Part shown: in pieces, positions 31,231 to 53,913 of the stretch | Layout of the letters: the number at the start of each line of letters is the position of its first letter | Numbering within the stretch: the first letter of the stretch is position 1 | Virus record (IMG/VR): IMGVR_UViG_3300045988_138996 | Location: 165,775-229,774 of that record | DNA: 64,000 nucleotides | DNA from: a virus | Reading direction: 5' to 3' (one strand) | The notes under the pieces: generated by a model | The model's input: only the letters and a program-made list of their open reading frames with translations | Databases searched by the model: none | What the model was told of the DNA's origin: nothing | Translations under genes and position numbers: made by a program

Positions 31231-31248
31231 GGGCTCCGCTCCGAAATC
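31231..31248 (+). promoter_or_regulatory. Class A hairpin-GAAATC motif, copy a (candidate promoter/5' leader)
   Basis: gggc-TCC-gctc (one G-T pair) then c-GAAATC. Followed by a GAGGG..CCCTC hairpin. 80 nt before ATG 31328. Confidence 0.7.
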
Positions 31249-31327
31249 TTTTACGAGGGTATTTGGCCCTCAGTATTTTATATTCATGGCGACCGTTCCA
31301 TGTAAAAATACCGGCAGAGGAGATATC

Positions 31328-31648
31328 ATGAAATTAGTATCTAATGTTAATTACAAAAAAAATGACGTATTCAACTTATTCGTTCTTTTAAATAAAATGG
31401 ACGGATTTTTCGTCGGCGAGCCAATTGAAGGCATTCAAGCCGACGTAACTCAAATTTCCTTTGAAGATAACGATAATTTGTTTATCGTTATCGAAACATA
31501 TTTCAACGGTAAAAAGTTGAGAACATTTTATTTCGATTTCAGTGGCAAAGAAATTTCCACCGAAGTACGTACAGAGGACGTGACTATAGCGTCCAAAGTA
31601 TTATCTCAATTAGAAGAAGACTTCGCAGATTACTGCGAAGAATTATAG
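31328..31648 (+). CDS. Hypothetical protein
   Basis: agaggaga SD before ATG 31328 (the track's 31286 start runs through the leader motif). Confidence 0.6.
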   Translation: MKLVSNVNYKKNDVFNLFVLLNKMDGFFVGEPIEGIQADVTQISFEDNDNLFIVIETYFNGKKLRTFYFDFSGKEISTEVRTEDVTIASKVLSQLEEDFADYCEEL

Positions 31649-31660
31649 GAGGAATTTACC

Positions 31661-32032
31661 ATGAAATATAAATACGATGGTAAAAAATACTGTGTTTCTA
31701 ATTTTCTGGATAATGATAATTTATTGTCTCGTCAAGTTTGGCACTCTTTGAGTGCTAAGCCTGGCGAAGGCAAAAATTTAACAGTTCAAAAAGTAAAGGA
31801 GCATACAGTTGTGTGCTCTTATTTCACTTATGACAGAGGTGCTCAAGACTTTGTTGAAGTCATGGAAGAATACCCAATGGAAGATGTTGCTCTCACTGGA
31901 GATGCGGCAGTATCGTTAGAGTTTAATAAGATATTAAGCTCTTTAAATACTGAAACAGCAGAATTATTAGAAGACTTAGTGTCTTATAAAGAACATTCTG
32001 CTGCTATAGCAGGATATAATGGCTGTATTTAA
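31661..32032 (+). CDS. Hypothetical protein
   Basis: aggagg SD. Confidence 0.65.
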   Translation: MKYKYDGKKYCVSNFLDNDNLLSRQVWHSLSAKPGEGKNLTVQKVKEHTVVCSYFTYDRGAQDFVEVMEEYPMEDVALTGDAAVSLEFNKILSSLNTETAELLEDLVSYKEHSAAIAGYNGCI

Positions 32033-32038
32033 TATATT

Positions 32039-32090
32039 AAGCTTTAGTTATGGATTATATTATATCTGTAGCTAAAGCTTTATTTTTTTA
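32039..32090 (+). terminator. Rho-independent terminator
   Basis: aagctttag/ctaaagctt 9-10 bp stem, then tattttttt. Confidence 0.7.
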
Positions 32091-32102
32091 TAAATATTGT
32101 TC

Positions 32103-32266
32103 GGTGACAGGTGTCCGCCCTATTATATATTTATTAGTATAGTGTTGGATAATACTATAATACTAATAAGAGAGGGCGGCACCGTATTCGACTTCCGACG
32201 CTTGCAACGTTTCGCTATCGCTTAGGCGTTGCTGCGTCTCTGGTCGTCGAATACTCACCTGTCACC
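32103..32266. other. Y-shaped (three-way junction) structured element, about 164 nt
   Basis: Perfect 11-bp closing stem ggtgacaggtg/cacctgtcacc. Arm 1 ccgccct..agggcgg (32115-32179). Arm 2 gtattcgac..gtcgaatac (32184-32254), containing a nested gacgc..gcgtc helix. Confidence 0.6.
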
Positions 32267-32373
32267 TTTGTCTTAATTTCGGCAGTGTCCCTTCGGGTCT
32301 TTACTGCGGAATATATTCTTTCTTGTGTTATTTAGCCGATCCGGCGGTAGTAGTTTACTAGTGTGTTCTGTAT

Positions 32374-32392
32374 GACGCTCCGCGTCGAAATT
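32374..32392 (+). promoter_or_regulatory. Class A hairpin-GAAATT motif, copy b
   Basis: gacgc-TCC-gcgtc then GAAATT. Followed by a TGAGGG..CCCTCA hairpin. 58 nt before ATG 32450. Confidence 0.7.
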
Positions 32393-32449
32393 ATTTATGA
32401 GGGTATTTTCCCTCATTTTTCTTTTATTATTCATAGGAGGAGAAAAACT

Positions 32450-32854
32450 ATGAAAACCGTTAAAGTTATTAAAGTTGATATGCCTTGTCAAAAAAGAAGA
32501 AATCCTATTCTTGATGTTATTAAGGTTGAAGTTAAAAAGGTTGAAGAGCCTGTTAAGGACAAGTTCTTGAGCCATCCGTTATTTAAAGATTATTTTGTTC
32601 GTGAAGCTGGAGTATTTGCTCCAGAAACCGAATGCTGGAGATTTTCTGTTCCTGGTCATGATGATATGGAAGTTTCTGTAATCAGAAGTTCTATGACTTA
32701 TGGAGGCAGTAAGGGACTGTTTGAACTAGCCATGTTGCGTAACGACAAGTGTTGTTATGACACACCTATTACTAATGATGTACGTGGCTGGTTAGAAGTT
32801 GAAGATGTGTTGGACATTCTAGAAGATGTTCAACGCATTTACGAGGAGGCGTAG
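32450..32854 (+). CDS. Hypothetical protein
   Basis: aggagg SD before ATG 32450 (the track's 32363 start runs through the leader motif). Confidence 0.65.
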   Translation: MKTVKVIKVDMPCQKRRNPILDVIKVEVKKVEEPVKDKFLSHPLFKDYFVREAGVFAPETECWRFSVPGHDDMEVSVIRSSMTYGGSKGLFELAMLRNDKCCYDTPITNDVRGWLEVEDVLDILEDVQRIYEEA

Positions 32855-32855
32855 C

Positions 32856-33143
32856 ATGAAATTCATACTTTTCGGTGAGGCTATGCCGAAAACCGAATTT
32901 AATGCTGTGGACTGCTACCACGCGTTAGAATACGCTTTGGGCACCTTCTTCAAGGATTGTGTCGTTGCAGAAAATGTGACATCACTTGAAGAAGGCGTCG
33001 TAGCGGTCTGTATTCGTTCATGGGCAAATATCGGTTCTGAAGAAGAGCCGGTGTCATATGAACGGCATCCGGTGTATTTGCTAGAAGAGGCAAGATATAA
33101 CAAATTATCGCCTCATACTCTAGCAATCATAACTGGAGAATAG
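32856..33143 (+). CDS. Hypothetical protein
   Basis: gaggagg SD. ATG lies 1 nt after the upstream TAG. Confidence 0.6.
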   Translation: MKFILFGEAMPKTEFNAVDCYHALEYALGTFFKDCVVAENVTSLEEGVVAVCIRSWANIGSEEEPVSYERHPVYLLEEARYNKLSPHTLAIITGE

Positions 33144-33221
33144 CCCCCCGCCGGGGCTAAACCTTCTACGGGGTACTATGTCGACATTTACGGCATGGTA
33201 CTCCTGTTGAAGTTTTTGTTT

Positions 33222-33240
33222 GCGACTCCGTCGCGAAATT
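33222..33240 (+). promoter_or_regulatory. Class A hairpin-GAAATT motif, copy c
   Basis: gcgac-TCC-gtcgc then GAAATT. Followed by a GAGGC..GCCTC hairpin. 56 nt before ATG 33296. Confidence 0.7.
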
Positions 33241-33295
33241 TTTCACGAGGCAATTTCGCCTCACATTCGTTATTCTACATGGAAGGAGAAAAGTT

Positions 33296-33457
33296 ATGCC
33301 AGTAGAAACAGTTTATAATTATCATTTAATAGATGTTGATAGAGAAATGTTCTCCGTTACAACATCTGATACTACTTCCGAAGTACTCAGAGAGTACCAA
33401 GGTTATGTATTAGTCGAAAGAGAAGTAATAGGCTATAGAGCAATCTTAGCCGACTAA
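33296..33457 (+). CDS. Small protein (53 aa), below the ORF-track cutoff
   Basis: ggaaggaga SD. ATG 33296 to TAA 33455-33457, read by hand: MPVETVYNYHLIDVDREMFSVTTSDTTSEVLREYQGYVLVEREVIGYRAILAD. Confidence 0.55.
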   Translation: MPVETVYNYHLIDVDREMFSVTTSDTTSEVLREYQGYVLVEREVIGYRAILAD

Positions 33458-33462
33458 TAATG

Positions 33463-33500
33463 AGGTGCTGGTAAGAAATTGCCGGCACCTTGCTTTAATT
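33463..33500 (+). terminator. Hairpin, weak terminator
   Basis: aggtgctgg/ccggcacct stem with one G-U pair; the T-tract is poor. Confidence 0.4.
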
Positions 33501-33542
33501 TAGTATTTAATATTTCATTATAAACATGAGGAGGATATTATC

Positions 33543-33689
33543 ATGTTAAAGAAACAATTCGTACAATGGCTTAATTCTTTTTACGCGGAATACCCTGTAA
33601 CATTCCGCGTGTTCTGGTTCCTAGTGGGCTGGACTGTAGGCAGTGCAGTAAAGATGGCAGTGTTGCAACATCGCCTTAACAAACGCTAG
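33543..33689 (+). CDS. Small hydrophobic protein (48 aa), below the ORF-track cutoff
   Basis: gaggagga SD. MLKKQFVQWLNSFYAEYPVTFRVFWFLVGWTVGSAVKMAVLQHRLNKR, one TM-like segment. Confidence 0.55.
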   Translation: MLKKQFVQWLNSFYAEYPVTFRVFWFLVGWTVGSAVKMAVLQHRLNKR

Positions 33690-33729
33690 GCGATAGAAGG
33701 TTTCGCTGGAGGGTTAACTTCTGAAGTTT

Positions 33730-33747
33730 CCCCTCCGGGGCGAAATC
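33730..33747 (+). promoter_or_regulatory. Class A hairpin-GAAATC motif, copy d
   Basis: cccc-TCC-gggg then c-GAAATC. Followed by a tgaccct..agggtca hairpin and a T-rich run. Its left arm can alternatively pair with upstream ggaggg. Confidence 0.6.
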
Positions 33748-33920
33748 TCCTGTGACCCTCTATTAATAGCTAGGGTCATATTTATTTTTATTATAAAGCT
33801 TTATATAAGCTACCGTAGGTGCTATGTACTCATAATACCTCCCTTTAATAAGATACACAACAACCTAATGTGCATCTACGGTAGTTGATATAAGGTTTTA
33901 TATACCTTACGAGATTGAGA

Positions 33921-33938
33921 GGGCTCCGCCCCGAAATC
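33921..33938 (+). promoter_or_regulatory. Class A hairpin-GAAATC motif, copy e
   Basis: gggc-TCC-gccc then c-GAAATC. Followed by about 200 nt of stacked hairpins before ATG 34143. Confidence 0.7.
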
Positions 33939-34142
33939 TTTCATGGGGCCTTCTGTGTGGAGGTCCCTTTCATACTTTTCTCCTCTTCTCCAGTAGTTAG
34001 GTCTGCTGGAGATATGAGGGCTAGATGAGCATTGACTTATCTAGCCTTGATATCTCTTGCAAGTGTGTGTTGATGCAAGAGGAGATTTTATTTTCACTAT
34101 GGCACGTGAAGCCATAGTACTTTTAAGAAGGAGGACATTACA

Positions 34143-34859
34143 ATGTCTAAGAAAACAGCTTTCGCAACAATTACTGCATTTTTATTCGGTTCCAATGCTA
34201 ACGGCTGGAGCCAAATGCTATCAGCAGTAGTAGCTGGTAAAAATGGTGTGCGTGACACCAAACCAACTCACGTAACAGTAGCAGGTCAAAGCTACGTAGG
34301 TCAAGGTATTGACGCATTAGCACAGTTGTTGGAACTGTTCGCCAACAAATCTGTGAATTATGCACGTTTTACAGCAGAGGTTATTACATCCGATGCTGTA
34401 GCAATTCGTGCATACAGCATTATGAAAGGCTTGAAAGATGGTTTAACACCTGCAAAGGTTGCTGACCATGTAATGAAACAAGCCGACTCTGCGGAAGACC
34501 GCGAGTGCTTTAAACGTTTCGCAATGGCGTTGAAAGATTGCCAACAACAAAACGTGATGCTTCGTATCTCCCGCTTGTCTCAAGAGCACAGCTATGCTCT
34601 TGAAATCCCCGAAGGCGTAGAAGTAAACGCCGGGGATATTATCAAGTTCGACCGTGGCGTGTCTGAAGATGGCGTGAAGTTGGCATATGGAGTGCAATCC
34701 AGCTACGCTTATGAATTAGCTAAGGTCAATGATGAGCTTAAAGCTCTCAGACCTAAAAACACTCCAAACAGCAAGCATCGTATGGCTTGCATTAATGGTA
34801 CTCTTAATCTCATTCGTGAGATTAAGGCTGAAGAAGTGTCTGCAGAAGACCTTATCTAA
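34143..34859 (+). CDS. Hypothetical protein (238 aa), probably highly expressed
   Basis: aaggagg SD at optimal spacing. Own leader and own terminator. Confidence 0.7.
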   Translation: MSKKTAFATITAFLFGSNANGWSQMLSAVVAGKNGVRDTKPTHVTVAGQSYVGQGIDALAQLLELFANKSVNYARFTAEVITSDAVAIRAYSIMKGLKDGLTPAKVADHVMKQADSAEDRECFKRFAMALKDCQQQNVMLRISRLSQEHSYALEIPEGVEVNAGDIIKFDRGVSEDGVKLAYGVQSSYAYELAKVNDELKALRPKNTPNSKHRMACINGTLNLIREIKAEEVSAEDLI

Positions 34860-34863
34860 CATT

Positions 34864-34888
34864 GGGGGCATTAGCCCCCTTTATTTTT
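34864..34888 (+). terminator. Rho-independent terminator
   Basis: gggggc-atta-gccccc followed by tttattttt. Confidence 0.8.
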
Positions 34889-34910
34889 ATTAATAAAGAG
34901 GAGGCCCACA

Positions 34911-35408
34911 ATGGCAACTTTTAATCTTAAACACGCAAATCCTGAAGTTATTAGTTATATGGCTGAAAAAATTCAGGTAGAATATCAAGGTACCGTTGAA
35001 GAAATCGACGGCGGTATTAAAGTAGAATGTTCTGACGAACATTTAAAAGACATTACGGACGCTTTTTCTAGAGTGAAACGTAATACTACAGTTTCAGGCT
35101 GGACTAAAACAGCCACTAAGTTTATTGGTCGTCAGACCAATACTATTAAAGACGCTGGCATCGGTGCCGTAGGCCTAGGTGCTAAAGGTTTGTTCGGAGG
35201 CTTGAAAAAGGTATCCGAATTGGCTATGGGTGCGACTAGTGTTATTATCAATGAAGGTAAAGAAGCTTGGAAAGAAGCTAGCGTTAGCGATGAGCTTCGT
35301 AACTTGAAGAAGAGCTTCGGCAGTACTGGTAGCGATGAAGAAGGCATTGAAATCATTAAAGATAATGCTGAAACTACTGTAAATAAAACTGCCGGTGCAG
35401 AAGGCTAA
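34911..35408 (+). CDS. Hypothetical protein with a Gly-rich central segment
   Basis: agaggagg SD. GIGAVGLGAKGLFGGLKK segment. Confidence 0.65.
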   Translation: MATFNLKHANPEVISYMAEKIQVEYQGTVEEIDGGIKVECSDEHLKDITDAFSRVKRNTTVSGWTKTATKFIGRQTNTIKDAGIGAVGLGAKGLFGGLKKVSELAMGATSVIINEGKEAWKEASVSDELRNLKKSFGSTGSDEEGIEIIKDNAETTVNKTAGAEG

Positions 35409-35606
35409 TAATTTCTGCGGACGATTGCTATTAACCGTCGGTAAATATTAATAGCATATAGCCCTAGTTGTCGAGAGCGAGTGGGACGACAACCTTATTC
35501 CGACCCTTAAAAGATGTTCTTGGTCGGGCTAATAAGATATGAACATCTAAGGTTTATAAGCGGGTGATGTCTGACGCTTATAATCTAAAATGCAGACATC
35601 ATAATA

Positions 35607-35660
35607 GGGTTTAGTCTAGAGGGGCAGGATTTGCTCTCCTAGGCTAAACCTTTATTTTTT
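35607..35660 (+). terminator. Long imperfect hairpin plus T-run closing the G+C-rich island
   Basis: ggtttag..ctaaacc outer stem with inner G-U pairs that work only on the + strand, then tttatttttt. Confidence 0.7.
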
Positions 35661-35887
35661 CTTATGTTGAATATACATTTAGGTGATACTGTCGTTACAG
35701 CGTTAGCTAAATGTATATTTTTTTATAATTCGCGAAAAGCATATCGCCTCAGTACGTATGGCGTAATTCGGGTGTTAGCTTTAGCGAAAGTCCATTTTTT
35801 TGGACACTTTTGGCAGTGGGCTAATTTTTTTAGTGACTGCTTTTTTTATCGGAACGATTACGTTTCCGATCGCCAAGAATTATTAAG

Positions 35888-36444
35888 GAGCGAGCGTCAG
35901 CGAGCGACTGTATATTATTTTATATATAGTAAGCCCGAGCGAAGCGAGGGCGTATATATCAAGTTCTCTGTGTACTCTCTTCTAAAGAGAGTAGTTTTGT
36001 ATTTATTTAGTATAGTCTAAGGCGAGCGAAGCGAGCCGTATATTCTTTGTTTACTTTCTTTTTAAGAAAGTAATTATGTTTATTATTTATTATTAGTAGT
36101 TCTCTGCTGTCTCTCTTGTAAAGAGAGTAGTTATATTATTAGTATTTTATATGTATAGATTCTCTGTTATCTCTCTTATCAAGAGAGTAATTAGTTATTT
36201 TATATATATGTATCATAATAGTATTAACGCAGCGAGCGAAGCGAGCGGAGTATGTATTATGTAGTATGTAGTTATTCCCGAAGAACGAGGAACGCTAGTG
36301 ACGAGTGAATTGTAGTGTCCTAGCGTAAGCGACGATCATAAGAGTATATATTGTATATTATATATAGGGCGAGCGAGGGGAGCGTCAGCGACCGGAGCGA
36401 GCATAGTATTATTATATAATATATTATAGGGAGCATAGCGACCG
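35888..36444 (+). repeat. Cluster of GCGA-rich boxes each followed by (G)GTATAT
   Basis: GAGCGAAGCGAG is exact at 35936-35947, 36023-36034 and 36233-36244. Related agcgagcgtcagcgagcgac (35888-35907), gcgagcgaggggagcgtcagcgaccggagcgagc (36367-36400) and gagcatagcgaccgg (36430-36444). All are followed by GTATAT, AGTATG or AGTATT. Confidence 0.7.
35961..36190 (+). repeat. Three copies of a ~45-nt hairpin repeat plus one unrelated 10-bp hairpin
   Basis: TTCTCTG-N-CTCTCTT-loop-AAGAGAGTA at about 35961-35995, 36098-36130 and 36158-36190. ttactttctt/aagaaagtaa hairpin at 36050-36072. Confidence 0.7.
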
Positions 36445-37709
36445 GAGTATATATATAGTCTTATAGGAGCTAGATAGGCCAATAAGGATTGGTGAATATT
36501 TAGTATATCGTGATATAGTATATCGTATTATACTATAGTAGTATATAGTAAATATGTGAGATCCTTATTTACAGTAAAAAGAAAAATTCGGCCTTGAAAA
36601 TTTACAGGTCGTAGACCGGAAAATTTTAAGTATTTTCCGCCCGGGGATATCTATATCATATATATAGTATAAGAAGGAACGTAGTGACTGGTAGATATAT
36701 ATTATGTTAATAATATAGTATATTTTCTGCCGTCGGTATTTTGTTAAAAGAGAGACTACTATATATAATAATTTCCGCCTAGGATATTATGGTTTATATA
36801 TAATATGTTTTTAGTTAATGTTTTTCCTGTATGCATACGCATACAGATATTAAAAACTTTTAGGGTGGGATATCTTATAATAATATTGAACGTCAGTGAA
36901 ATGTTATTATAGATTTAAATCTATATTAGATATAATTTTAATGAGAGCTATTAATGTGAAGAATAGGGAGCGCCGCGAATCTATTCAGCTATTAAAATTC
37001 TTAGTCGACACGATAGTATAGTATGGTAGAGATCGTGTCGATAGGTTACGAGTGCTAACGAGTTATATGTAGAATTCGTTGAGATGAAGGATGTTATCGA
37101 TGAGCCCGCGAAGAGAAACATCGTTCTTTAGAATTCGTAACAATATATCTAATGCGTTTGTGTATTATCAATATATATCAAGAAAATATATACTGATGTG
37201 TTTGAGTGAAGCTTGCGAAAAGAAAAACGCAATCAATTTTTATATATCGTAACGAAGCCCGTAAGGGTTCGTATTAGTATTATATATAGCTTATGAATAT
37301 AAGCGTATGTATATAACTATTAATACGAATTATACCAAAGTATTAGAAGTTAGTAAGCGTCTAATAAGTAGGTGGTTTTTGTTTGGGATCCGCCGTTATC
37401 TTAGTATTTCATTTACTAGCTAAGGTATTTAAAAGTCCCTTGCGTTTATTTTAGTCGAGTTATTTTATATATAATATTATATATAATAATAACGAAGAGC
37501 CATTACTGTTAAGAATGGATAGTAGACGAAATTGGGAACGGGCCCCAATAATAGTTATTATATTCTCTTAGAGAATATATAACGTCAATGGTTCGTCGTG
37601 TACGATCCTTTTCGAGTTTCGCAGAAAATTACGTAAGTAAGAGTTTGTAGCATTTGTAAAATGGGACAACATTTTGTTAGTATTCTCGCTATGTTACACA
37701 TAGCGACAC

Positions 37710-37739
37710 AAAAAAAGACCCCGAATTAATTTCGAGGTC
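37710..37739 (-). terminator. Minus-strand rho-independent terminator
   Basis: On the - strand: gacctcgaa-atta-ttcggggtc with a T-G wobble (a C-A mismatch on +), then T7. Confidence 0.6.
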
Positions 37740-37762
37740 GTTATATATTGTTTACTAAAAGC

Positions 37763-37791
37763 GATGAACTACGTTCATCGGTATATTACTC
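37763..37791. promoter_or_regulatory. Class B element 1: 7-bp hairpin plus GGTATATTACTC
   Basis: gatgaac-tac-gttcatc followed by GGTATATTACTC (37780-37791). Confidence 0.65.
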
Positions 37792-37839
37792 ATGTTTAAG
37801 TATAAGTTATTAATAATTTAAAAAAATAATTCAGAAAAT

Positions 37840-37859
37840 AAAAAAGACCCCGAAGGGCC
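37840..37859 (-). terminator. Minus-strand terminator with a UUCG loop
   Basis: On the - strand: ggccc-ttcg-gggtc with a G-T wobble (an A-C mismatch on +), then T6. Confidence 0.6.
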
Positions 37860-37935
37860 ATTTTTATATAAGTATTTTTTTAATATTCAAAGCGGTGCGA
37901 AGCGAAGCGTAGCAAACCGTGGAGCGTAGCGGAAC

Positions 37936-37964
37936 GGTGAACTGCGTTCACCGGTATATTACTC
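37936..37964. promoter_or_regulatory. Class B element 2: 7-bp hairpin plus GGTATATTACTC
   Basis: ggtgaac-tgc-gttcacc followed by GGTATATTACTC (37953-37964). Confidence 0.65.
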
Positions 37965-38097
37965 TGTTTAGATACGTCGTTAATCAAAAATAAAAAAATA
38001 TTTTTTATTTAATTCTATTATATATATAACAAGCAATAAAAAAAACAGCCTCAGATTTTTATGACCTGGACTGTTTTGTGTGTGTAAAAACGGAAGC

Positions 38098-38128
38098 GGT
38101 GTAACGTAGTTACACCGGTATATTACTC
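38098..38128. promoter_or_regulatory. Class B element 3: 8-bp hairpin plus GGTATATTACTC
   Basis: ggtgtaac-gta-gttacacc followed by GGTATATTACTC (38117-38128). Confidence 0.65.
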
Positions 38129-38234
38129 AAGTTAGGTATATCATTAATCAATTTTGTAAAAATAATTAAATATTCATTATTAATGCATAAAGTAAGACAG
38201 GGGTATTTTTAAGTTAAAAAAATAGAAAAAATTA

Positions 38235-38259
38235 AAGTCAGATAATATCTGGCTTTTTT
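38235..38259 (+). terminator. Plus-strand rho-independent terminator in the ORF-free region
   Basis: gtcagat-aat-atctggc with a T-G wobble that works only on +, then T7. Confidence 0.55.
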
Positions 38260-38695
38260 TAATTTTAATGTCTGGTTTAGTATATATAGGAAACAATAAA
38301 ACATAATATACAGAATATGTATATTTATGAATACGAGCTTTTTTCAAAAGCGTTCGCCTACCATAGCTTACTCCGAAAAGTTTAAATGAAACGTCGTAAG
38401 CGTACTAGTGACGCGGGTTTTTAATAATTTTATATTTTAAAATTATGTAGGGTTAGGAACGAGGTATATAAAAATTGCTCCCTTAATAGTTCTTATTTAT
38501 CTCTTATATATACTATATATATAATATAAAAGGATTATTTTTTTATATAGTCCGCCGTCTCCTCACGAGCGCCAACCTGAGTTATATTTAGCTATATATA
38601 TAGGTATTGCTATAGCTTTATTTAGCTCTGTATATACGGCTAGACCTATTTAAAACATCTTACCTGTATAGGTAGCTCCCTTGGGGGGTGGGGGG

Positions 38696-38984
38696 AGTCC
38701 GCAACACTCTCAAGTTTGTTATTTTTAAGTAAAAACTAGTAAAAATTGTTTATGGCTATTAAAACGATTAAGAGTTGGTAACACTCTGTATTTGCTGTTA
38801 ATTAACTAAAAATGGCTGTTTTTATATATACAGCTATTAAAATCATTTTAAGTCCGCAACACTCATAATGTCTCCCTTTTTACACAAAAACAGCTTATTT
38901 TGCAATAACTAAGTTTCGTATTTTTGCAGTATTTTATAATATTTTAGTTTATGACTATTAATATCTATTAAGTCCACAACATTC
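38696..38984 (+). repeat. Four iteron-like 14-mers (AGTCCGCAACACTC family)
   Basis: 38696-38709 agtccgcaacactc; 38773-38786 agttggtaacactc; 38851-38864 agtccgcaacactc; 38971-38984 agtccacaacattc. The last three are preceded by a CTATTAA-N-ATT-AAG context. Confidence 0.65.
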
Positions 38985-39029
38985 ATAAAAACGTCTTAAA
39001 TAGTTAAAAACAATATATTTTCATATTAA

Positions 39030-39057
39030 ATGTATTTGGTCATATGTATTTGGTCAT
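39030..39057 (+). repeat. Perfect tandem duplication of a 14-mer
   Basis: atgtatttggtcat x2 (39030-39043 and 39044-39057), bordering an extremely AT-rich tract (39058 to about 39340). Confidence 0.8.
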
Positions 39058-39490
39058 ATAATATATTTAATTAATATAGTGTATTGCTATATATATCATT
39101 AATCTGTTATAGCAACTTTATTAGTATTTAATAGCTATATATAGTCATATATATAGTTTATTGTTATATTATATATATGGTTTAATATATATTGTCATAT
39201 ATATGTATATAGTTAACGTATTATATTATAGTTTATCATTAGTATAGTATTAACAGTTATATTAGTATTTAGTATTATGTTATTAGTAGTATTAGTGTTA
39301 TTATATATATAGTAAGAGTAATAATAAAGAGAAACTATTAAATGAAAAGATGCGGGCGATTTTGTATATTGTTTTTTATATCAATCTAATGAATTGCCGC
39401 ATTTGATTTTTATATGTATGATATATTTATCAGCATATGATTAATAACTGTATATGGTTTTATATATATAAGGCTAATGTCATTAAGTAC

Positions 39491-39508
39491 GTGCTCCGCA
39501 CCGAAATC
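39491..39508 (+). promoter_or_regulatory. Class A hairpin-GAAATC motif, copy f
   Basis: gtgc-TCC-gcac then c-GAAATC. 46 nt before ATG 39554, at the head of the small-gene array. Confidence 0.7.
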
Positions 39509-39553
39509 TCCCGTAGTCCTTTTTTATTATATAGGAATTAATGAGCGTAGAGA

Positions 39554-39754
39554 ATGAATCAATATTTAGTCGATGCTATTGTCGATCATGATGATTGGAT
39601 ACGGTATATTAGACCAAGGAAGATGTGTTATTCTGACGATATAAGCGAGAAATATAACCTAGATAATATAATCGTAGCATATAGCAGGAATTATTATAAA
39701 TATAGTGCCGAATTATATTTACAGTATTTAATGTATTTAATGGTAATAGAATGA
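39554..39754 (+). CDS. Small protein, Tyr-rich C-terminal helix family B
   Basis: First ORF after class A motif f. Ends YSAELYLQYLMYLMVIE. Confidence 0.6.
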   Translation: MNQYLVDAIVDHDDWIRYIRPRKMCYSDDISEKYNLDNIIVAYSRNYYKYSAELYLQYLMYLMVIE

Positions 39755-49381: not shown

Positions 49382-49382
49382 T

Positions 49383-50337: not shown

Positions 50338-50346
50338 GAGGTGACT

Positions 50347-50646: not shown

Positions 50647-50848
50647 GACTCTTGAGTTTTTAAAAATTATTCTTGATATTATTTTAGGATGCATATTAGG
50701 ATTTTTAATACATACCGTATTAACTAAATTTGTCGATAAAGTATTTGATGTATATAATAAAGACGGCGAAATTCATTTATTGTTTATGATATTGCCGTCT
50801 TGTTTTATTGTATTATTACTGTGGGGTATCGTTACATGGATGAGATGA
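50627..50848 (+). CDS. Small two-pass membrane protein
   Basis: agagg SD before ATG 50627. Confidence 0.5.
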   Translation: MFDLSFETLEFLKIILDIILGCILGFLIHTVLTKFVDKVFDVYNKDGEIHLLFMILPSCFIVLLLWGIVTWMR

Positions 50849-51102
50849 AACTTCAATTAGAAGTACTATATAAAATCTTAATGCTAGATTTTCATAAATT
50901 CTATCGTCGAGAAAAAGGATCGTATAACCTAACTATTAAAAAAGTAGGCGATGCCGTTATGGTTACTGTCGATTGGAACGAAAATAAAAACTTCGTAAAA
51001 TTTCAAATATATTGGGATTCTGAAGAGAAACATACAAGCTTTAGCTTTAATTTTGATACCGATAAAATTGACGCATTGTATATCGTAAAGGATTTATTAT
51101 AA
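50836..51102 (+). CDS. Hypothetical protein
   Basis: Start at 50836, or at 50845 with an ATGA overlap. Confidence 0.5.
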   Translation: MDEMKLQLEVLYKILMLDFHKFYRREKGSYNLTIKKVGDAVMVTVDWNENKNFVKFQIYWDSEEKHTSFSFNFDTDKIDALYIVKDLL

Positions 51103-51118
51103 GAAGGGAGATTTTTAT

Positions 51119-51403
51119 ATGGGAATGGTAAATGAAATCACAAATAAGTTAATTGGCATTAAAGGCCGTATCGCTTTTGAACATAAAGACTGTATTATCT
51201 ATATCGACAATTCTCGTAAAAAAGAAGTCGATAGCGGCGATATTCAGATCTTCAAGGATCGTAAACAAGTATATGACTTTTCTATTGCATATCCTTCTAA
51301 GGAATGCAAATCTAAGGGTATTTACAATAATACAAAAGATAAATTTATTAATAATATCGATTTAGAAAAATTACATGAGATTATTATGACGACAGACCTA
51401 TGA
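51119..51403 (+). CDS. Hypothetical protein
   Basis: aagggaga SD. Confidence 0.65.
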   Translation: MGMVNEITNKLIGIKGRIAFEHKDCIIYIDNSRKKEVDSGDIQIFKDRKQVYDFSIAYPSKECKSKGIYNNTKDKFINNIDLEKLHEIIMTTDL

Positions 51404-52047
51404 TTTTCTTAAAAGATAAATATCGAATTGTCTTAGATAAAAGAAACGTTACAACAATTCTTATTACAATATTAACAATAGCATTCTTTTTATTTTGTGA
51501 TATGAATTATGCTACTGATAATGGAAAACTGGCATTATATCAAACGCCAATATTAATTATCGTCGTAAGTATAATCACGATCGACATATTACCTAATAAG
51601 GTTAATCCGTTTCATATCGATTGTCTAATGACAGCTAAAGTTGACGAAAAACAAACTGAAGTAGTATTTAATATCTTTAAAAATATAATAAATCTTGTTC
51701 TTTGTGAAATTTTACATTATCCTAATATTCTTGAATTACGAATTAAAGATATTAATATCGGTCAATTAAAAAACGTAACATTAATGATCAGAGCTATTGG
51801 TTCTGTTGAATTCGGTAAAAGATCTGTCGACTTATTAATTTCAGTATATAATAATGATGTGGCTATTCCATTAGTATCATTTTCAATAATAATAACATCT
51901 GATATTCAGGATATATTAGATAGTATAACAGTAACGAAAAATTTAAATCAATGGAAAGATATTATCGTATTAGCTAAGACAGTAGAATATTATTTGATAA
52001 ATCATCAATATAAAGGGGCTATTAAAAATGAAGAAAGAGGATTTTAA
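51400..52047 (+). CDS. Membrane-anchored hypothetical protein
   Basis: ATGA overlap. Two N-terminal hydrophobic segments. Confidence 0.6.
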   Translation: MIFLKDKYRIVLDKRNVTTILITILTIAFFLFCDMNYATDNGKLALYQTPILIIVVSIITIDILPNKVNPFHIDCLMTAKVDEKQTEVVFNIFKNIINLVLCEILHYPNILELRIKDINIGQLKNVTLMIRAIGSVEFGKRSVDLLISVYNNDVAIPLVSFSIIITSDIQDILDSITVTKNLNQWKDIIVLAKTVEYYLINHQYKGAIKNEERGF

Positions 52048-52432
52048 ACAGCTATGCTGGTTATTTCGATTATTTTTAATAGCTATTAATACTGAATGTT
52101 ATCAGTCAAATGATTTTAAAATTGGCGAATTTAAATATGCTGTTAGATTAATAGCTGTTGAACATATCCTTCATGTCGAATTGTTAAAGAAAAATAATCC
52201 GGTCGTTGCTTCAATATCTGGTGTCGAATATTTACCACAGGAATCATTAAGTTATAACTTTAGAACAAACGATATATTAAACGATTATTTTGAATTATTC
52301 TTTAACGGCAGTAAGATTATTGAAGAAAATCTTAATATACTGTATAATATATCATATAATATATGTAATCCTGTAGAAATCATGAAAGGACTAGTTAATA
52401 ACAATGGTCGGAAGAATAAAATTTACTGGTAA
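52028..52432 (+). CDS. Hypothetical protein
   Basis: aaagggg SD region. Confidence 0.55.
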   Translation: MKKEDFKQLCWLFRLFLIAINTECYQSNDFKIGEFKYAVRLIAVEHILHVELLKKNNPVVASISGVEYLPQESLSYNFRTNDILNDYFELFFNGSKIIEENLNILYNISYNICNPVEIMKGLVNNNGRKNKIYW

Positions 52433-52727
52433 GCTAAGTACTATTAATAGAATTAATAATGAATTATTTTATACTGATATGTTCGCGGGCAATTGTATCG
52501 TCAAAGAAAAAATTCGTTGTGACAATATTTTAATGTTAACAATCGAAACTAATTACGATATTAATTCAGCATATTTAGTTTCCTTAAGCGACAAATACCA
52601 TGTTAATATCGAATATAGTATTAGCGATCATAAAAATCATATTAAACATAATGGTATTGTCGTATTTGAAAATAATAAAGCCGAAATAATCGAAGAGAAA
52701 AAATTTAACTATGAATCAAAAGCTTAG
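52404..52727 (+). CDS. Hypothetical protein
   Basis: Overlaps the upstream end. Confidence 0.5.
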   Translation: MVGRIKFTGKLSTINRINNELFYTDMFAGNCIVKEKIRCDNILMLTIETNYDINSAYLVSLSDKYHVNIEYSISDHKNHIKHNGIVVFENNKAEIIEEKKFNYESKA

Positions 52728-53175
52728 TCGACGTGTCTTTGCAGCAGTAAAAGATAATGTCTTAATAACATCTGAATGCCGATATTATGAATTTAATAGA
52801 CTCGATATTTCGGCAGCTAAAACAAATGTTAGGCTTACGTCTAAAGATACCGAAGAATCTAAAATGTTTAATAGTATAAAAACATTAATAGCACTTGTTA
52901 ATAAATACGATGAATTTAAACAAGCCGGTATGATTATATGGTTATTAGGATACTATAGTTTTATCTTAAATAAAGATTTAGACATAAAAAAACATTTTAA
53001 ATTATTTAAAGAAATTCAGACTATATATGCTCAACAACTTAATTTTGGTCCTAATGAAGTTCAGACTCAACGACTTAGAGAATCGTTAGAACAGGTAGCT
53101 AGTCGACTTAATGAACAAATTAATTTCTGGACCGATATTTATAGAAATCTTAACGAGAGGAATGGTGATCGATGA
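52711..53175 (+). CDS. Hypothetical protein
   Basis: Overlaps the upstream end. Confidence 0.55.
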   Translation: MNQKLSRRVFAAVKDNVLITSECRYYEFNRLDISAAKTNVRLTSKDTEESKMFNSIKTLIALVNKYDEFKQAGMIIWLLGYYSFILNKDLDIKKHFKLFKEIQTIYAQQLNFGPNEVQTQRLRESLEQVASRLNEQINFWTDIYRNLNERNGDR

Positions 53176-53849
53176 ACGGAAGTTTACGTAACTTATTTAA
53201 ACGTCATCGCCATAGTTTTAATCCAGAAAGCTTACTGCGTGACTTAAAAAAGAATAAAGAAAAAAAGAATTTATTTGACAAAGTTAAAGAAATGGAGGAG
53301 GCTAGAAAAGCAGAAGTGTTGGAACCAGAGCGTAACAACTATCCACAGTGTAAAGTTGATTTAGTCGCACAAATACAGCAAGAAATCGAAGAAGAAAATA
53401 CTCCGAATGAACCGGCGGACGATATTCAAGAAGTTTCTGTACACGCTGATTGTCCTACAATCGAAATTGATGATTGGACGACAGAAGATTTAGTACGTAC
53501 TATTCAGAAAAGTAAAGAAGCTATTAAACATATAATGCAAAATTACGAGTTCTGGAATAGCATGGTGAAGGAATGCGATCAAGCACTTGGCGATCTTCGA
53601 CATTTCGCTGAATTTTACGACGACGCTACACAAGAAGAAATTAATAAAGTTTATGAATTAATGACTGAATATAGTCGTAAGCGTCGTGTGTATAAAGATC
53701 GCGTCGAAATTTTTAAAGATTTGTTCGCCGGCAAGGCTAAGATGGAAAACACTTACGCTCCAATTAATCAAATGTTTAATAAATTTAACAAGATGAATAT
53801 CGAGCGTCAATATTCTCCACGCGTCCTTAAGGACTTGTTCGAGCGTTAG
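53172..53849 (+). CDS. Hypothetical acidic protein (225 aa)
   Basis: ATGA overlap, gagagga SD. Confidence 0.65.
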   Translation: MNGSLRNLFKRHRHSFNPESLLRDLKKNKEKKNLFDKVKEMEEARKAEVLEPERNNYPQCKVDLVAQIQQEIEEENTPNEPADDIQEVSVHADCPTIEIDDWTTEDLVRTIQKSKEAIKHIMQNYEFWNSMVKECDQALGDLRHFAEFYDDATQEEINKVYELMTEYSRKRRVYKDRVEIFKDLFAGKAKMENTYAPINQMFNKFNKMNIERQYSPRVLKDLFER

Positions 53850-53870
53850 TCACATTCTACATTATCTTTC

Positions 53871-53890
53871 GGGGACTTCGTCCCCGTTCT
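53871..53890 (+). terminator. Short GC hairpin, probable operon terminator
   Basis: ggggac-ttc-gtcccc; poor T-tract. Confidence 0.45.
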
Positions 53891-53895
53891 CATTC

Positions 53896-53913
53896 GGGCT
53901 CCGCCCCGAAATC
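53896..53913 (+). promoter_or_regulatory. Class A hairpin-GAAATC motif, copy h
   Basis: gggc-TCC-gccc then c-GAAATC. Followed by an agaagctat..atagcttct hairpin plus T9. 53 nt before ATG 53966. Confidence 0.7.

What the first reader, a model, noticed from the sequence alone, without database searches (positions are those of the whole stretch)
31231..53913. Eight copies of a covarying hairpin (TCC loop) plus C-GAAAT(C/T), most 46-80 nt upstream of operon-first start codons
The copies are at 31231, 32374, 33222, 33730, 33921, 39491, 47954 and 53896, all on the + strand. The loop TCC, the closing C-G pair, the C after the stem and GAAAT(C/T) are invariant, while the stem sequence changes with full compensation. 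The stems are gggc/gccc, (g)acgc/gcgt(c), (g)cgac/gtcg(c), cccc/gggg and gtgc/gcac, plus gggc/gctc with a G-T pair that is tolerated only in the + sense. Five different compensated stems argue that the hairpin itself is recognised, as ssDNA or as RNA. Most copies are followed within about 10 nt by a second covarying hairpin (GAGGG..CCCTC, GAGGC..GCCTC, tgaccct..agggtca, ccaca..tgtgg) and a T-rich stretch. Six copies sit 46-80 nt upstream of the first start codon of a gene block and typically follow a terminator; copy e sits 205 nt upstream of ATG 34143 and copy d has no adjacent downstream gene. The motif is absent from the structural module (1-26.6 kb). Hairpin-dependent promoters are known for phage N4 virion RNAP, so by analogy this could be the promoter or initiation signal of the phage-encoded RdRP-like polymerase in the same window. 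Alternatives are an RNA processing or stability signal, or an antitermination signal.
Basis: seen in the sequence. Interest (0 to 1): 0.87.

Follow-up and report, generated by a model that had tools for sequence, protein, structure and literature searches.

The report
Conserved hairpin promoter signal, jumbo phage
A tiny covarying DNA hairpin with a fixed tail sits in front of blocks of small genes in a family of oral jumbo phages. It is most likely the promoter read by the phage's own split RdRP/YonO-type RNA polymerase, an enzyme class whose promoters are still unknown.

Summary
There are eight perfect + strand copies of NNNC-TCC-GNNN-CGAAAT(C/T) and no near-misses. A covariance model scores them 31-42 bits; the next best hit scores 9 bits. 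In related oral jumbo-phage contigs I found 285 distinct copies with 37 stem/loop combinations. The two inner variable pairs are 94-98% Watson-Crick.

Conservation starts abruptly at the first stem base. It runs about 30 nt downstream (CGAAAT-YTYYTnTGAGG, then a second hairpin). About half the copies lie 62-79 nt upstream of an ATG.

The "RdRP-like split polymerase" is confirmed. Three adjacent ORFs align in order, end to end, along unsplit 1100-1500 aa proteins that match Pfam RdRP. The motif core stays invariant while these proteins diverge to 25-30% identity.

On the template strand the hairpin reads C-GGA-G, usually GCGGAGC. That is the same GNA mini-hairpin as in the phage N4 virion-RNAP promoter P2.

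Best reading: a phage-specific, hairpin-type promoter, probability about 0.55. The main rival is an RNA leader element. No transcript 5' ends are available, so the mechanism is inferred.

The parts
31231..31248 (+). Copy a: GGGC-TCC-GCTC-CGAAATC (one G-T pair). It is the first element after the RNAP gene set, 55 nt before ATG 31286.
   Evidence: (41 bits). Orthologous copies in L004, L020, L046 and L073 have stems GGCC/GGCC or GGGC/GCCC.
31255..31271 (+). Second hairpin of copy a (GAGGG..CCCTC), followed by a T-rich stretch.
32375..32392 (+). Copy b: ACGC-TCC-GCGT-CGAAATT, 75 nt before ATG 32450 (SD AGGAGGAG).
   Evidence: 42 bits. The orthologous site in relatives has TGAC/GTCA, GGAC/GTCC or GCAC/GTGC.
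32397..32416 (+). Second hairpin of copy b (ATGAGGG..CCCTCAT), followed by a T run.
33146..33162 (+). Degenerate ninth copy: CCCC-GCC-GGGG-CTAAAC. It overlaps the stop codon of ORF 32826-33143. A long hairpin and T run follow it and end directly at copy c.
   Evidence: 6.9 bits; intact CGAAAT versions in L057, L062 and L016
33223..33240 (+). Copy c: CGAC-TCC-GTCG-CGAAATT, 73 nt before ATG 33296 (54-aa ORF). The unit ends at terminator 33461-33492.
   Evidence: 40.2 bits
33247..33262 (+). Second hairpin of copy c (GAGGC..GCCTC).
33730..33747 (+). Copy d: CCCC-TCC-GGGG-CGAAATC. No downstream ORF, so it may drive a short non-coding transcript.
   Evidence: 40.6 bits. Conserved in L001, L008 and L009.
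33753..33778 (+). Second hairpin of copy d (TGACCCT..AGGGTCA), followed by a T-rich run.
33921..33938 (+). Copy e: GGGC-TCC-GCCC-CGAAATC, 222 nt before ATG 34143, with a highly structured leader in between.
   Evidence: 38.9 bits
33945..33967 (+). Second hairpin of copy e (GGGGCCTTC..GGAGGTCCC, two G-T pairs in + sense).
39491..39508 (+). Copy f: GTGC-TCC-GCAC-CGAAATC, 63 nt before ATG 39554. It opens an 8.3-kb array of about 35 small ORFs that follows the 3.5-kb non-coding region.
   Evidence: 31.3 bits
47954..47971 (+). Copy g: GGGC-TCC-GCCC-CGAAATC, 50 nt after stop 47904 and 67 nt before ATG 48021.
   Evidence: 32.5 bits
47976..47994 (+). Second hairpin of copy g (CCACA..TGTGG).
53896..53913 (+). 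Copy h: GGGC-TCC-GCCC-CGAAATC, 47 nt after stop 53849 and 70 nt before ATG 53966.
   Evidence: 37.2 bits
53931..53956 (+). Second hairpin of copy h (AAGAAGCTA..TAGCTTCTT), then a T run directly before the ATG.
27834..28898 (+). N-terminal piece of the split RdRP/YonO-like two-barrel RNA polymerase.
   Evidence: Aligns to residues 154-473 of unsplit P0122 (E 2e-26). Orthologues occur in all clades.
28924..30093 (+). Catalytic piece of the split polymerase (invariant GGxDxDTDG).
   Evidence: Its profile hits 118 proteins, mostly 1100-1500 aa. Seven of these were scanned: four pass the Pfam PF05183 RdRP cut-off and two more match weakly. It aligns to P0122 residues 487-882 (E 1e-36).
30140..31099 (+). 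C-terminal piece of the split polymerase.
   Evidence: Aligns to P0122 residues 916-1249 (E 2e-7). Orthologues.

Best explanation
The motif is a phage-specific promoter, that is, a transcription-initiation signal for one temporal class of genes. These are blocks of small, early-type ORFs and a few short non-coding units.

The proposed signal is a very short G+C-rich inverted repeat with a fixed 3-nt spacer, immediately followed by an A+T-rich single-strand-prone tail (CGAAAT-YTYYT).

Proposed mechanism (inferred):
1. In negatively supercoiled phage DNA the repeat extrudes as a hairpin.
2. On the template (-) strand it forms 5'-nnnC-GGA-Gnnn-3'. This is a GNA mini-hairpin with a C:G closing pair, the same structure that N4 virion RNAP binds.
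3. Extrusion, together with the easily melted tail, offers a single-stranded template.
4. A phage-encoded RNA polymerase reads the loop, the closing pair and the tail, and starts a fixed distance downstream. The most likely enzyme is the split RdRP/YonO/crAss-gp66-like enzyme encoded at 27834-31099. Its relatives prefer single-stranded templates and have no sigma factor.
5. The start site is either inside GAAAT (N4 geometry: about 11 nt from the loop centre) or at the conserved purine 13 nt after the stem (TG of TGAGG). In the second case the mRNA would begin with the second hairpin, which would act as a 5' stabiliser.

The polymerase genes carry no such signal themselves and follow the virion and lysis genes. 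So the enzyme may be made late and delivered with the DNA, which would make these early promoters.

Shown: the motif, its covariation, its conservation, its positions, and the identity of the polymerase. Inferred: initiation at the motif, hairpin extrusion, which enzyme reads it, and packaging of the enzyme.

My sub-probabilities: promoter of some phage-directed kind 0.55-0.6; recognised as an extruded hairpin 0.4; read by the split RdRP-like enzyme 0.4-0.45.
For: 1. Structure is selected, not sequence. In 52 non-redundant copies 97.6% of cells are paired, with 65 double-change cells and 0/500 shuffles as high. There are 37 stem/loop combinations in 285 distinct copies. The same orthologous site carries ACG/CGT, TGA/TCA, GGA/TCC or GCA/TGC. 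This rules out a duplex palindrome bound by a dimeric protein.

2. The stem has almost no wobble and no strand bias. There are 11 G-T and 9 A-C pairs among 855, as expected if both DNA strands must pair.

3. The template-strand loop and closing pair are C-GGA-G in 245 of 285 copies. GCGGAGC is present in 6 of 8 window copies. This is the N4 P2 mini-hairpin and a GNA triloop with Tm about 73 C as a heptamer (PMC13037366; PMC4496689). Twelve apparently intact copies keep only the two inner pairs, GC-TCC-GC. That is too weak for an RNA stem but is exactly the minimal DNA mini-hairpin.

4. Conservation has a sharp 5' edge at the first stem base. No position from -60 to -1 exceeds 0.42 bits. Conservation extends about 30 nt downstream with fixed spacing: T23 80%, G24 83%. 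N4 promoters likewise consist of the hairpin plus a short tail up to +1.

5. Position. All copies are on the coding strand and intergenic (2 of 127 lie inside an ORF of 100 aa or more). In 60 of 125 cases an ATG follows 62-79 nt downstream, whereas the distance to the upstream stop codon is scattered.

6. Unit structure is motif, then gene(s), then a canonical terminator: 32039-32080, 33461-33492 and 34864-34879. At copy c a terminator-like hairpin and T run end 1-2 nt before the stem, leaving no room for another promoter.

7. No host-type promoter signal stands out. The Bacteroidota pattern TTTG-N17-23-TAnnTTTG occurs 4 times against 3.8 expected, and none of those sites is upstream of a gene block.

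8. The window encodes a split RdRP-like RNAP. The three-gene set is followed by motif copies in every clade, including those with only 25-33% protein identity, and the motif core stays invariant.

9. Relatives of this enzyme class transcribe single-stranded or denatured DNA, and their promoters are undefined (bioRxiv 10.1101/2020.03.07.982082; PMC5467207).
Against: - No transcript 5' ends or expression data exist for this uncultured phage. Initiation at the motif is inferred from anatomy only.
- 40 of 285 copies have loop GCC, which is GGC on the template strand and not a GNA loop. All but two of these have the all-G:C stem CCCC/GGGG. So the N4-type loop is not obligatory.
- The stem is only 4 bp (2-5), against 5-7 bp in N4.
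- ViennaRNA DNA parameters give identical energies for the two strands (-2.4 kcal/mol). The template-strand stability argument therefore rests on published measurements, not on anything computed here.
- A few copies (GTGC-TCC-GTAT) pair better in + sense.
- The second hairpin with its T run looks like an intrinsic terminator placed right after the putative start, which is odd for a promoter.
- Only 64 kb of a roughly 230-kb genome was seen. Another polymerase (T7/N4-like, or a second set) or a specificity factor could be encoded elsewhere.
- The AlphaFold model of the catalytic piece was poor (pLDDT 48). The polymerase assignment therefore rests on sequence profiles.
Confidence: 0.55

Rival explanations
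1. RNA leader element. Transcription starts further upstream and both hairpins lie in the mRNA. A phage protein would bind the first hairpin with its CGAAAU tail. Its role could be processive antitermination past the second hairpin and U run, endonucleolytic processing that leaves a hairpin-protected 5' end, or control of translation or stability of the downstream gene.
For: - The motif is strictly on the coding strand and at a fixed distance from start codons.
- It is followed by a terminator-like hairpin and T run. That arrangement is what an attenuator or antitermination site looks like.
- The sharp 5' edge of conservation would also fit a cleavage site.
- The second hairpin shows more + sense wobbles than A-C pairs (25 against 8). 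So at least that part may act in + sense.
- Copies g and h lie only 47-50 nt after the preceding stop codon, with a weak terminator or none in between. Read-through transcripts would therefore contain the motif.
Against: - The first stem has about 1% wobble pairs in either sense, which is unusual for an RNA helix sampled 855 times.
- A 2-4 bp stem with a UCC triloop is marginal as free RNA, and twelve copies keep only 2 pairs.
- No conserved promoter is found upstream of any copy.
- At copy c a hairpin and T run abut the stem.
- No Rfam family matches.
- Once composition is controlled, the + and - strands of the second-hairpin region are equally structured (z -2.77 against -2.67, p 0.69).
Confidence: 0.25
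2. It is a promoter, but not for the split RdRP-like enzyme. It would be read by a different polymerase encoded in the unseen roughly 170 kb (for example a T7/N4-like virion RNAP), or by host RNAP redirected by a phage specificity factor.
For: - The core hairpin (3-nt loop, C-GGA-G on the template strand) is the one used by the T7-like N4 vRNAP (PMC4496689, PMC13037366).
- Only 64 kb of a genome of about 220-240 kb is in the window.
- Co-occurrence of motif and RdRP-like genes is within one phage lineage only, so it is not independent evidence.
Against: - None of the 12 window ORFs of 300 aa or more matches a T7-like RNAP in PHROGs or Pfam.
- None of the 11 clusters of large proteins in the first 75 related loci stood out as a second polymerase. 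I read eight representative sequences by eye and compared all 81 proteins with the window's three RNAP pieces by BLASTP; I did not scan them against a family library.
- The tail (CGAAAT) and spacing differ from N4 (TTTT then G).
- The motif always begins directly after the RdRP-like gene set.
Confidence: 0.12
3. It is a termination or insulation module. Hairpin 1, the tail, hairpin 2 and the T run together would form the 3' end signal of the upstream operon for a polymerase that needs a sequence-specific terminator.
For: The module lies between operons. Hairpin 2 with its T run is terminator-like in at least five of the eight copies.
Against: - The distance to the downstream ATG is tightly constrained, while the distance to the upstream stop is not.
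- Canonical terminators without the motif end several units.
- Copy f follows 3.5 kb without any ORF.
- Tandem copies 76-96 nt apart occur in relatives.
Confidence: 0.05
4. It is a single-strand initiation signal for a primase (like G4 ori or ssiA), used for lagging-strand or second-strand DNA synthesis.
For: GNA-type mini-hairpins occur at primase-dependent origins (PMC13037366).
Against: - Placement is strictly intergenic, on one strand, and at a fixed distance from start codons.
- The motif is absent from 31 kb of the window.
- It is linked to a conserved downstream leader.
Confidence: 0.03

Closest known systems
Early promoters of coliphage N4 virion RNA polymerase (P1-P3)
   Same: Both have an inverted repeat with a 3-nt loop. 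The template-strand loop is GGA with a 5'C:G3' closing pair, and GCGGAGC is present in most copies. The outer stem is variable and compensated. A short conserved single-stranded tail lies between stem and start. Nothing is conserved upstream of the hairpin. Both serve small early-type genes.
   Different: Here the stem is 4 bp (2-5) rather than 5-7. The tail is CGAAAT-YTYYT rather than TTTT-G. There is no invariant -8G equivalent: position 8 is C, T or G. At least eight copies are spread over 23 kb, instead of three at one genome end. A loop variant GCC exists. The polymerase encoded next to the motif is a two-barrel RdRP/YonO-like enzyme, not a T7-like one. No SSB or gyrase dependence is known here.
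GNA DNA mini-hairpins (d(GCGNAGC), Hirao/Yoshizawa)
   Same: The template strand carries C-GGA-G, mostly as GCGGAGC. Copies with only two base pairs still keep this heptamer.
   Different: The stability here is taken from the literature, not measured. 14% of copies have GGC instead of GGA on the template strand.
YonO (SPbeta), crAss-like phage gp66 and QDE-1: single-chain two-barrel 'RdRP-like' RNA polymerases
   Same: The window's three ORFs are a split member of this superfamily (Pfam PF05183 through unsplit homologues). gp66 and QDE-1 prefer single-stranded DNA templates. gp66 is virion-delivered and transcribes early genes.
   Different: No promoter is defined for any of them. phi14:2 early transcripts showed no common motif, and the YonO promoter is undetermined. 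Here the enzyme is split into three polypeptides and a crisp candidate signal exists.
Lambda nut (boxA/boxB) and HK022 put antitermination RNAs
   Same: Each is a hairpin-containing element just upstream of terminators, in + sense, at the start of operons.
   Different: boxB has a 5-nt GNRA-like loop and a conserved stem, and put is two larger stem-loops. Both occur once per early operon, downstream of a recognisable promoter. Here the loop is 3 nt, the stem is 4 bp, there is no upstream promoter, and the stem is Watson-Crick only.
Poxvirus early UCE / yeast linear-plasmid UCS (ATNTGA) promoters of other non-canonical two-barrel RNAPs
   Same: Each is a short element at a fixed distance upstream of every gene or operon, read without a sigma factor. 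The conserved TnTGA downstream of the hairpin resembles NTGA.
   Different: UCE and UCS are A+T-rich duplex elements bound by a helicase-type factor, and they have no hairpin (PMC6211774). The resemblance is 4-5 bases and may be chance.

Membership tests
N4-type hairpin promoter (vRNAP early promoter) | Inverted repeat forming a hairpin with a 3-nt loop and a 5-7 bp stem; non-conserved stem bases only need to pair | tested here: inconclusive
   The 3-nt loop and compensated variable stem are met. Stem length is 4 bp, sometimes 2-5, which is shorter than in N4 (PMC4496689).
N4-type hairpin promoter (vRNAP early promoter) | Template-strand loop 5'-G(G/A)A-3' with a 5'C:G3' closing pair (mini-hairpin GCGGAGC/GCGAAGC) | tested here: met
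   The coding strand reads C-TCC-G, so the template reads C-GGA-G, in 8 of 8 window copies and 245 of 285 copies in relatives. GCGGAGC is present in 6 of 8 window copies. The exception is 40 of 285 copies with GGC on the template strand.
N4-type hairpin promoter (vRNAP early promoter) | Conserved -8G, a four-A spacer on the template strand and +1C; start 11 nt from the loop centre | tested here: not met
   The tail is CGAAAT, not TTTT-G, on the coding strand. The position equivalent to -8 varies (C 60%, T 18%, G 22% on the + strand). The start site itself is not testable here.
N4-type hairpin promoter (vRNAP early promoter) | Read by a T7-like single-subunit virion RNAP, with gyrase and SSB dependence | not testable with these tools
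   No T7-like RNAP was found among window ORFs of 300 aa or more. About 170 kb of the genome was not seen, and there is no biochemistry.
RdRP/YonO/crAss-gp66-like two-barrel RNA polymerase (for ORFs 27834-31099) | Homology to Pfam PF05183 / QDE-1-type catalytic double-psi beta-barrel with a DxDxD metal site | tested here: met
   GGxDxDTDG is invariant in 20 homologues. The profile hits unsplit proteins (E 1e-44 to 1e-13). Of seven scanned, four pass the PF05183 cut-off (25.4-36.4 bits against 23.8) and two more match weakly. The three ORFs map collinearly on P0122. No direct Pfam or PDB hit for the window proteins themselves.
RdRP/YonO/crAss-gp66-like two-barrel RNA polymerase (for ORFs 27834-31099) | Two-barrel fold | tested here: inconclusive
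   The AlphaFold2 model of the catalytic piece has mean pLDDT 48. It is too poor for a fold search.
Rfam RNA families | Match to a curated covariance model at the motif sites | tested here: not met
   The only hit above gathering score in the window is OTKONC at 37519-37684. Nothing with E<=1 overlaps any copy in 31100-39700.
Intrinsic (rho-independent) terminator | G+C-rich hairpin immediately followed by a T run | tested here: not met
   Hairpin 1 is followed by CGAAAT, not a T run. Hairpin 2 does meet the pattern in several copies, but it sits 15-25 nt before the start codon.
Host (Bacteroidota sigma-A) promoter | TTTG at -33 and TAnnTTTG at -7, upstream of the transcribed element | tested here: not met
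   The pattern occurs 4 times against 3.8 expected, and none is near a copy. There is no positional conservation from -60 to -1. The consensus is from my own knowledge of Bacteroides promoters.
Lambda-type nut / boxB antitermination site | boxA plus a 15-nt boxB hairpin with a GNRA-like pentaloop, downstream of an early promoter | tested here: not met
   The loop is 3 nt, no boxA-like element is conserved, and no upstream promoter is present. The defining features are from established knowledge.

The most novel reading that the evidence does not exclude
A three-piece RdRP/YonO/crAss-gp66-type RNA polymerase recognises its promoters as extruded template-strand DNA mini-hairpins (C-GGA-G plus an ATTTCG tail). 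This would be the first defined promoter for this whole class of sigma-less two-barrel polymerases. It would also be a case of convergence with the unrelated T7-like N4 virion polymerase on the same hairpin.
Probability: 0.35. Interest if true: 0.88.

Novelty: new variant of a known kind. Interest (0 to 1): 0.78.

Why it matters
How YonO-, crAss-gp66- and QDE-1-type polymerases find their start sites is an open question. The YonO paper leaves the promoter undetermined, and the phi14:2 study found no common motif at early genes.

This phage family provides a short, invariant, many-copy candidate signal with natural compensatory mutants, encoded next to the enzyme's genes. That makes the question testable directly with three recombinant proteins and oligonucleotide or supercoiled templates.

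If confirmed, the result would:
- show that hairpin promoters are not a peculiarity of N4-like phages;
- give a way to mark the early regulon of abundant, uncultured oral jumbo phages;
- supply a compact orthogonal promoter-polymerase pair for Bacteroidota.

If instead the hairpin acts in RNA, it would define a new phage leader or antitermination element. That would still be a new family.

Tried and rejected
1. Wobbles are 11 in + sense against 9 in - sense out of 855 pairs, so there is no asymmetry. The argument is dropped.

2. Strand test on hairpin 2. Raw energies favour the + strand (37 of 52 copies, p 4e-5). With shuffles that control for composition, the two strands are equal. A symmetric helix count gives 25 G-T against 8 A-C. 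This is only modest evidence for + sense.

3. ViennaRNA DNA parameters do not distinguish the two strands of hairpin 1. They carry no GNA bonus, so the test is uninformative.

4. The structure prediction of the catalytic piece gave pLDDT 48, so I did not run a fold search. PDB sequence and profile searches were empty.

5. Megablast of 30-40 kb against GenBank phages found no match. The DNA polymerase only finds DnaE-type polymerases of distant phages, at 35% identity or less.

6. The genome-contig scan for the extended motif gave 120+ single hits in unrelated bacterial genomes, many of them G+C-rich taxa. About 280 are expected by chance for 16 fixed bases in 596 Gb, by my estimate. It says nothing about the host. 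Sixteen G+C-rich IMG/VR loci were likewise chance hits and were excluded.

7. Search for a second promoter class: TTTTnTGTAAW occurs 6 times against 2.5 expected, and the Bacteroidota -33/-7 pattern occurs at chance level. Neither is convincing.

8. Distant unsplit homologues. Three of four contigs were too short. L269 shows a different repeated inverted-repeat element that ends in TGAGG. This is suggestive only.

9. Ideas considered and rejected:
   - A palindromic protein-binding site: the stems vary freely.
   - A REP/MITE-like repeat: the motif is strand- and gene-linked.
   - An anti-SD sequestering element: several copies lack an SD or a gene.
   - A ToxI-like or CRISPR-like repeat: the copies are not tandem.

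10. The literature search for a defined promoter of two-barrel phage RNAPs found none. The library is incomplete.

Full report
**What the window is.** All predicted genes lie on the + strand. The layout, in order:
- A DnaE-type DNA polymerase at 9-2858.
- A virion, tail and lysis module up to about 26.6 kb (Gp10_C fibre domain; Amidase_2 and the same layout in relatives).
- An operon at 27034-31099.
- Short units at 31.2-36 kb.
- A 3.5-kb stretch with no ORF of 60 aa or more, at 36021-39553. It holds the Rfam OTKONC RNA.
- Long arrays of small ORFs.

Homologues of ORF 28924-30093 sit on contigs of 215-240 kb from human-associated metagenomes. One was binned with Segatella salivae. So this is part of an uncultured jumbo phage of about 230 kb from oral Prevotella-type bacteria. 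No GenBank phage is close at the DNA level.

- A scan that requires pairing finds 8 copies with a perfect 11-base core and none with one mismatch on either strand.
- A covariance model built from 52 non-redundant copies scores the eight at 31-42 bits. The next hit scores 9 bits.
- Nothing is found in 1-31 kb or on the - strand.
- A ninth, decayed copy at 33146-33162 has loop GCC and tail CTAAAC. It is intact in relatives.

**Conservation and covariation.**
- Contigs encoding the neighbouring protein at 88%, 77% and 52% identity carry the motif at syntenic sites, all on the coding strand.
- Two IMG/VR scans brought 130 usable A+T-rich loci. Sixteen G+C-rich loci were chance hits and were excluded.
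- These loci hold 285 distinct copies with 37 stem/loop combinations.
- The pair next to the closing pair is Watson-Crick in 279 of 285 copies, the next in 269 of 285, and the outermost in 240 of 285.
- On 52 non-redundant copies 97.6% of cells pair, against 62% in shuffles and at most 50% when the partner is slid. There are 65 double-change cells, and 0 of 500 shuffles reach the observed values.
- RNAalifold predicts the same four pairs unaided.
- Orthologous sites differ by compensated changes. Copy b's site, for example, carries ACG/CGT, TGA/TCA, GGA/TCC or GCA/TGC.
- So base-pairing itself is under selection. The invariant parts are C-TCC-G and CGAAAT.

- A position-by-position profile shows nothing conserved from -60 to -1 (at most 0.42 bits).
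- Conservation begins abruptly at the first stem base.
- It continues downstream at fixed spacing: CGAAAT, Y, T, Y, Y, T, n, T (80%), G (83%), A, G, G, then a T-rich loop.
- The TGAGG is the 5' arm of the second hairpin. That hairpin is present in nearly all copies with varied, compensated arms and is usually followed by a T-rich run.
- An ATG of an ORF of 45 aa or more follows 62-79 nt after the motif start in 60 of 125 cases (median 74). Distances to the preceding stop codon are scattered. Only 2 of 127 copies lie inside a long ORF.
- In the window each copy opens a unit that ends in a canonical terminator: 32039-32080, 33461-33492 and 34864-34879. Terminator-like sites are five-fold enriched in 26-41 kb (36 against 7.5 expected).
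- At copy c a long hairpin and T run end one or two bases before the stem.

In the large set there are 11 G-T/T-G pairs and 9 A-C/C-A pairs among 855. That is almost no wobble and no asymmetry, and it fits a duplex inverted repeat in which both strands must pair.

Read on the template (-) strand the element is 5'-RATTTCG-nnnC-GGA-Gnnn-3'. A GNA triloop closed by 5'C:G3' is the exceptionally stable DNA mini-hairpin. d(GCGGAGC) melts at about 73 C. N4 mini-vRNAP binds exactly a GCGGAGC hairpin with a GGA or GAA loop in its single-stranded promoter (PMC13037366). The N4 review gives these requirements: a 3-nt loop, the loop's 5'G and 3'A, the 3'G:C5' closing pair, variable stem bases that only need to pair, and conservation from -17 to +1 (PMC4496689).

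Six of the eight window copies contain GCGGAGC on the template strand. Twelve otherwise intact copies in relatives keep only GC-TCC-GC, two pairs. That would be nearly worthless as an RNA stem but is the minimal DNA mini-hairpin.

Against this reading:
- 40 of 285 copies have loop GCC (GGC on the template strand). All but two of them have CCCC/GGGG stems.
- A few GTGC-TCC-GTAT copies pair better in + sense.
- The folding software cannot tell the strands apart.

For the second hairpin, raw energies favour the + strand, but z-scores do not. A symmetric count gives 25 G-T against 8 A-C. This is a modest hint that it acts in the transcript.

**The polymerase.**
- ORF 28924-30093 has an invariant GGxDxDTDG.
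- Its profile finds 118 proteins, most of them 1100-1500 aa, matching their central 300-400 residues.
- Six of seven that I scanned match Pfam PF05183 (eukaryote-type RdRP, the QDE-1 family). Four of them pass the curated cut-off.
- The three adjacent window ORFs map in order onto residues 154-473, 487-882 and 916-1249 of the unsplit P0122.
- Direct Pfam, PHROG and PDB searches and an AlphaFold model gave nothing usable.
- The three-gene set exists in clades at 77-99%, about 50% and 25-33% identity. In another clade the C-terminal piece is fused to a SLOG domain. In every clade the set is followed at once by motif copies whose core is unchanged.
- The polymerase operon has no copy upstream, in the window or within 10 kb in relatives. 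It follows the virion and lysis genes.
- A gene with an RNase H1-type hybrid-binding domain directly precedes the set and abuts it without a gap.

**Interpretation.** Several features fit a promoter better than the alternatives: the sharp upstream edge, the fixed distance to start codons, the motif-genes-terminator units, the lack of any other promoter-like signal, and the restriction to blocks of small genes.

Three features point to recognition as an extruded template-strand hairpin: a selected but sequence-free stem, a Watson-Crick-only stem, and the N4-identical loop and closing pair.

Relatives of the encoded enzyme transcribe single-stranded or denatured DNA and have no defined promoter. 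[quoted passage not shown] A comparative survey places YonO-like enzymes in jumbo phages that have a Pol III-type replicase, as this one does (PMC7824862).

I therefore propose a hairpin-type promoter read by the split enzyme. The start would be either in GAAAT (N4 geometry) or at the conserved TG 13 nt after the stem. In the latter case the mRNA would begin with the second hairpin. All of this is inference; no 5' ends are available.

**Rivals.**
- An RNA leader (antitermination, processing or stability) remains plausible at about 0.25. The grounds are the terminator-like second hairpin and the short distance to upstream genes at copies g and h.
- A promoter for another, unseen polymerase or factor: about 0.12.
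- A terminator module or a primase signal is unlikely, given the positional statistics.
- Duplex palindrome, mobile repeat and anti-SD ideas were rejected.

**Comparison and novelty.** The element works like an N4 early promoter, but I do not file it as a member of that family. The tail, spacing and stem length differ, and the associated polymerase belongs to a different superfamily. No Rfam family matches. My literature searches found no described promoter for two-barrel single-chain phage polymerases. I rate it a new variant of a known kind (hairpin promoters). It is of high interest because it offers a concrete, testable promoter for a polymerase class that lacks one.

Noticed in passing
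window 37762-37791, 37935-37964, 38097-38128 (+): A second hairpin-plus-tail family: CG(A/G)TG(T)AAC-NNN-GTT(A)CA(T/C)CG-GTATATTACTC. Three copies lie about 165-175 nt apart in the 3.5-kb non-coding region. Each is followed 70-110 nt later by a terminator-like hairpin. The triplet is conserved, with small compensated stem changes, in 16 related loci (up to three copies each). They may be three small-RNA genes or another promoter class.
   Followed up: partly
window 37519-37684 (+): Rfam OTKONC RNA (RF03053), 160 bits against a gathering score of 141. It lies inside a 3.5-kb stretch (36021-39553) with no ORF of 60 aa or more that is full of A+T-rich repeats and bidirectional terminator-like hairpins. 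No paper in the library mentions OTKONC.
   Followed up: partly
window 33146-33162: Decayed ninth copy of the motif (loop GCC, tail CTAAAC) overlapping the stop codon of ORF 32826-33143. With its long hairpin and T run it abuts copy c. Relatives have two intact copies in tandem 76-96 nt apart at this and other sites.
   Followed up: yes
relatives, e.g. L001 14165, L004 12949, L048 12410: Loop variant GCC (40 of 285 copies). All but two of these copies have the all-G:C stem CCCC/GGGG. This may be a trade-off between loop and stem stability.
   Followed up: partly
window 27363-27833: A 156-aa ORF directly upstream of the first polymerase piece, abutting it with no gap. Its orthologues carry a Cauli_VI / RNase H1-type RNA-DNA hybrid-binding domain. 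It may be an accessory subunit of the split polymerase.
   Followed up: no
L269 7276, 7410, 7764, 10485 (contig with an unsplit 1295-aa RdRP-like protein): A different repeated intergenic element: CCTGTRGG, about 33 nt with an internal hairpin, CCCWCAGG, 4 nt, then KGTGAGG. It has partly compensated arms (TGTGG/CCACA against TGAGG/CCTCA). Like the window motif it is an inverted repeat followed closely by TGAGG.
   Followed up: partly
window 32033-32449: A 417-nt gene-free gap between terminator 32039-32080 and copy b. It contains a long inverted repeat (ggtgacaggtg ... cacctgtcacc) around G+C-rich segments and may be a structured RNA. No Rfam match.
   Followed up: no
window 33921-34142: The 222-nt leader between copy e and ATG 34143 contains at least five consecutive strong hairpins, an unusually structured 5' region.
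   Followed up: no
window 59721-60983 and 59165-59720: A 420-aa ORF matching the PHROG family annotated as transposase (phrog_506, E 2e-41), preceded by a 556-nt non-coding stretch. Related loci (L023, L042) carry similar ORFs.
   Followed up: no
window, upstream of ATGs 2941, 22808, 48021, 56891: Recurrent ribosome-binding context (A)ACGAAAGGA(a/c)at 8-12 nt before start codons of genes that head operons. It differs from the AGGAGG-type sites seen after copies b and c.
   Followed up: no
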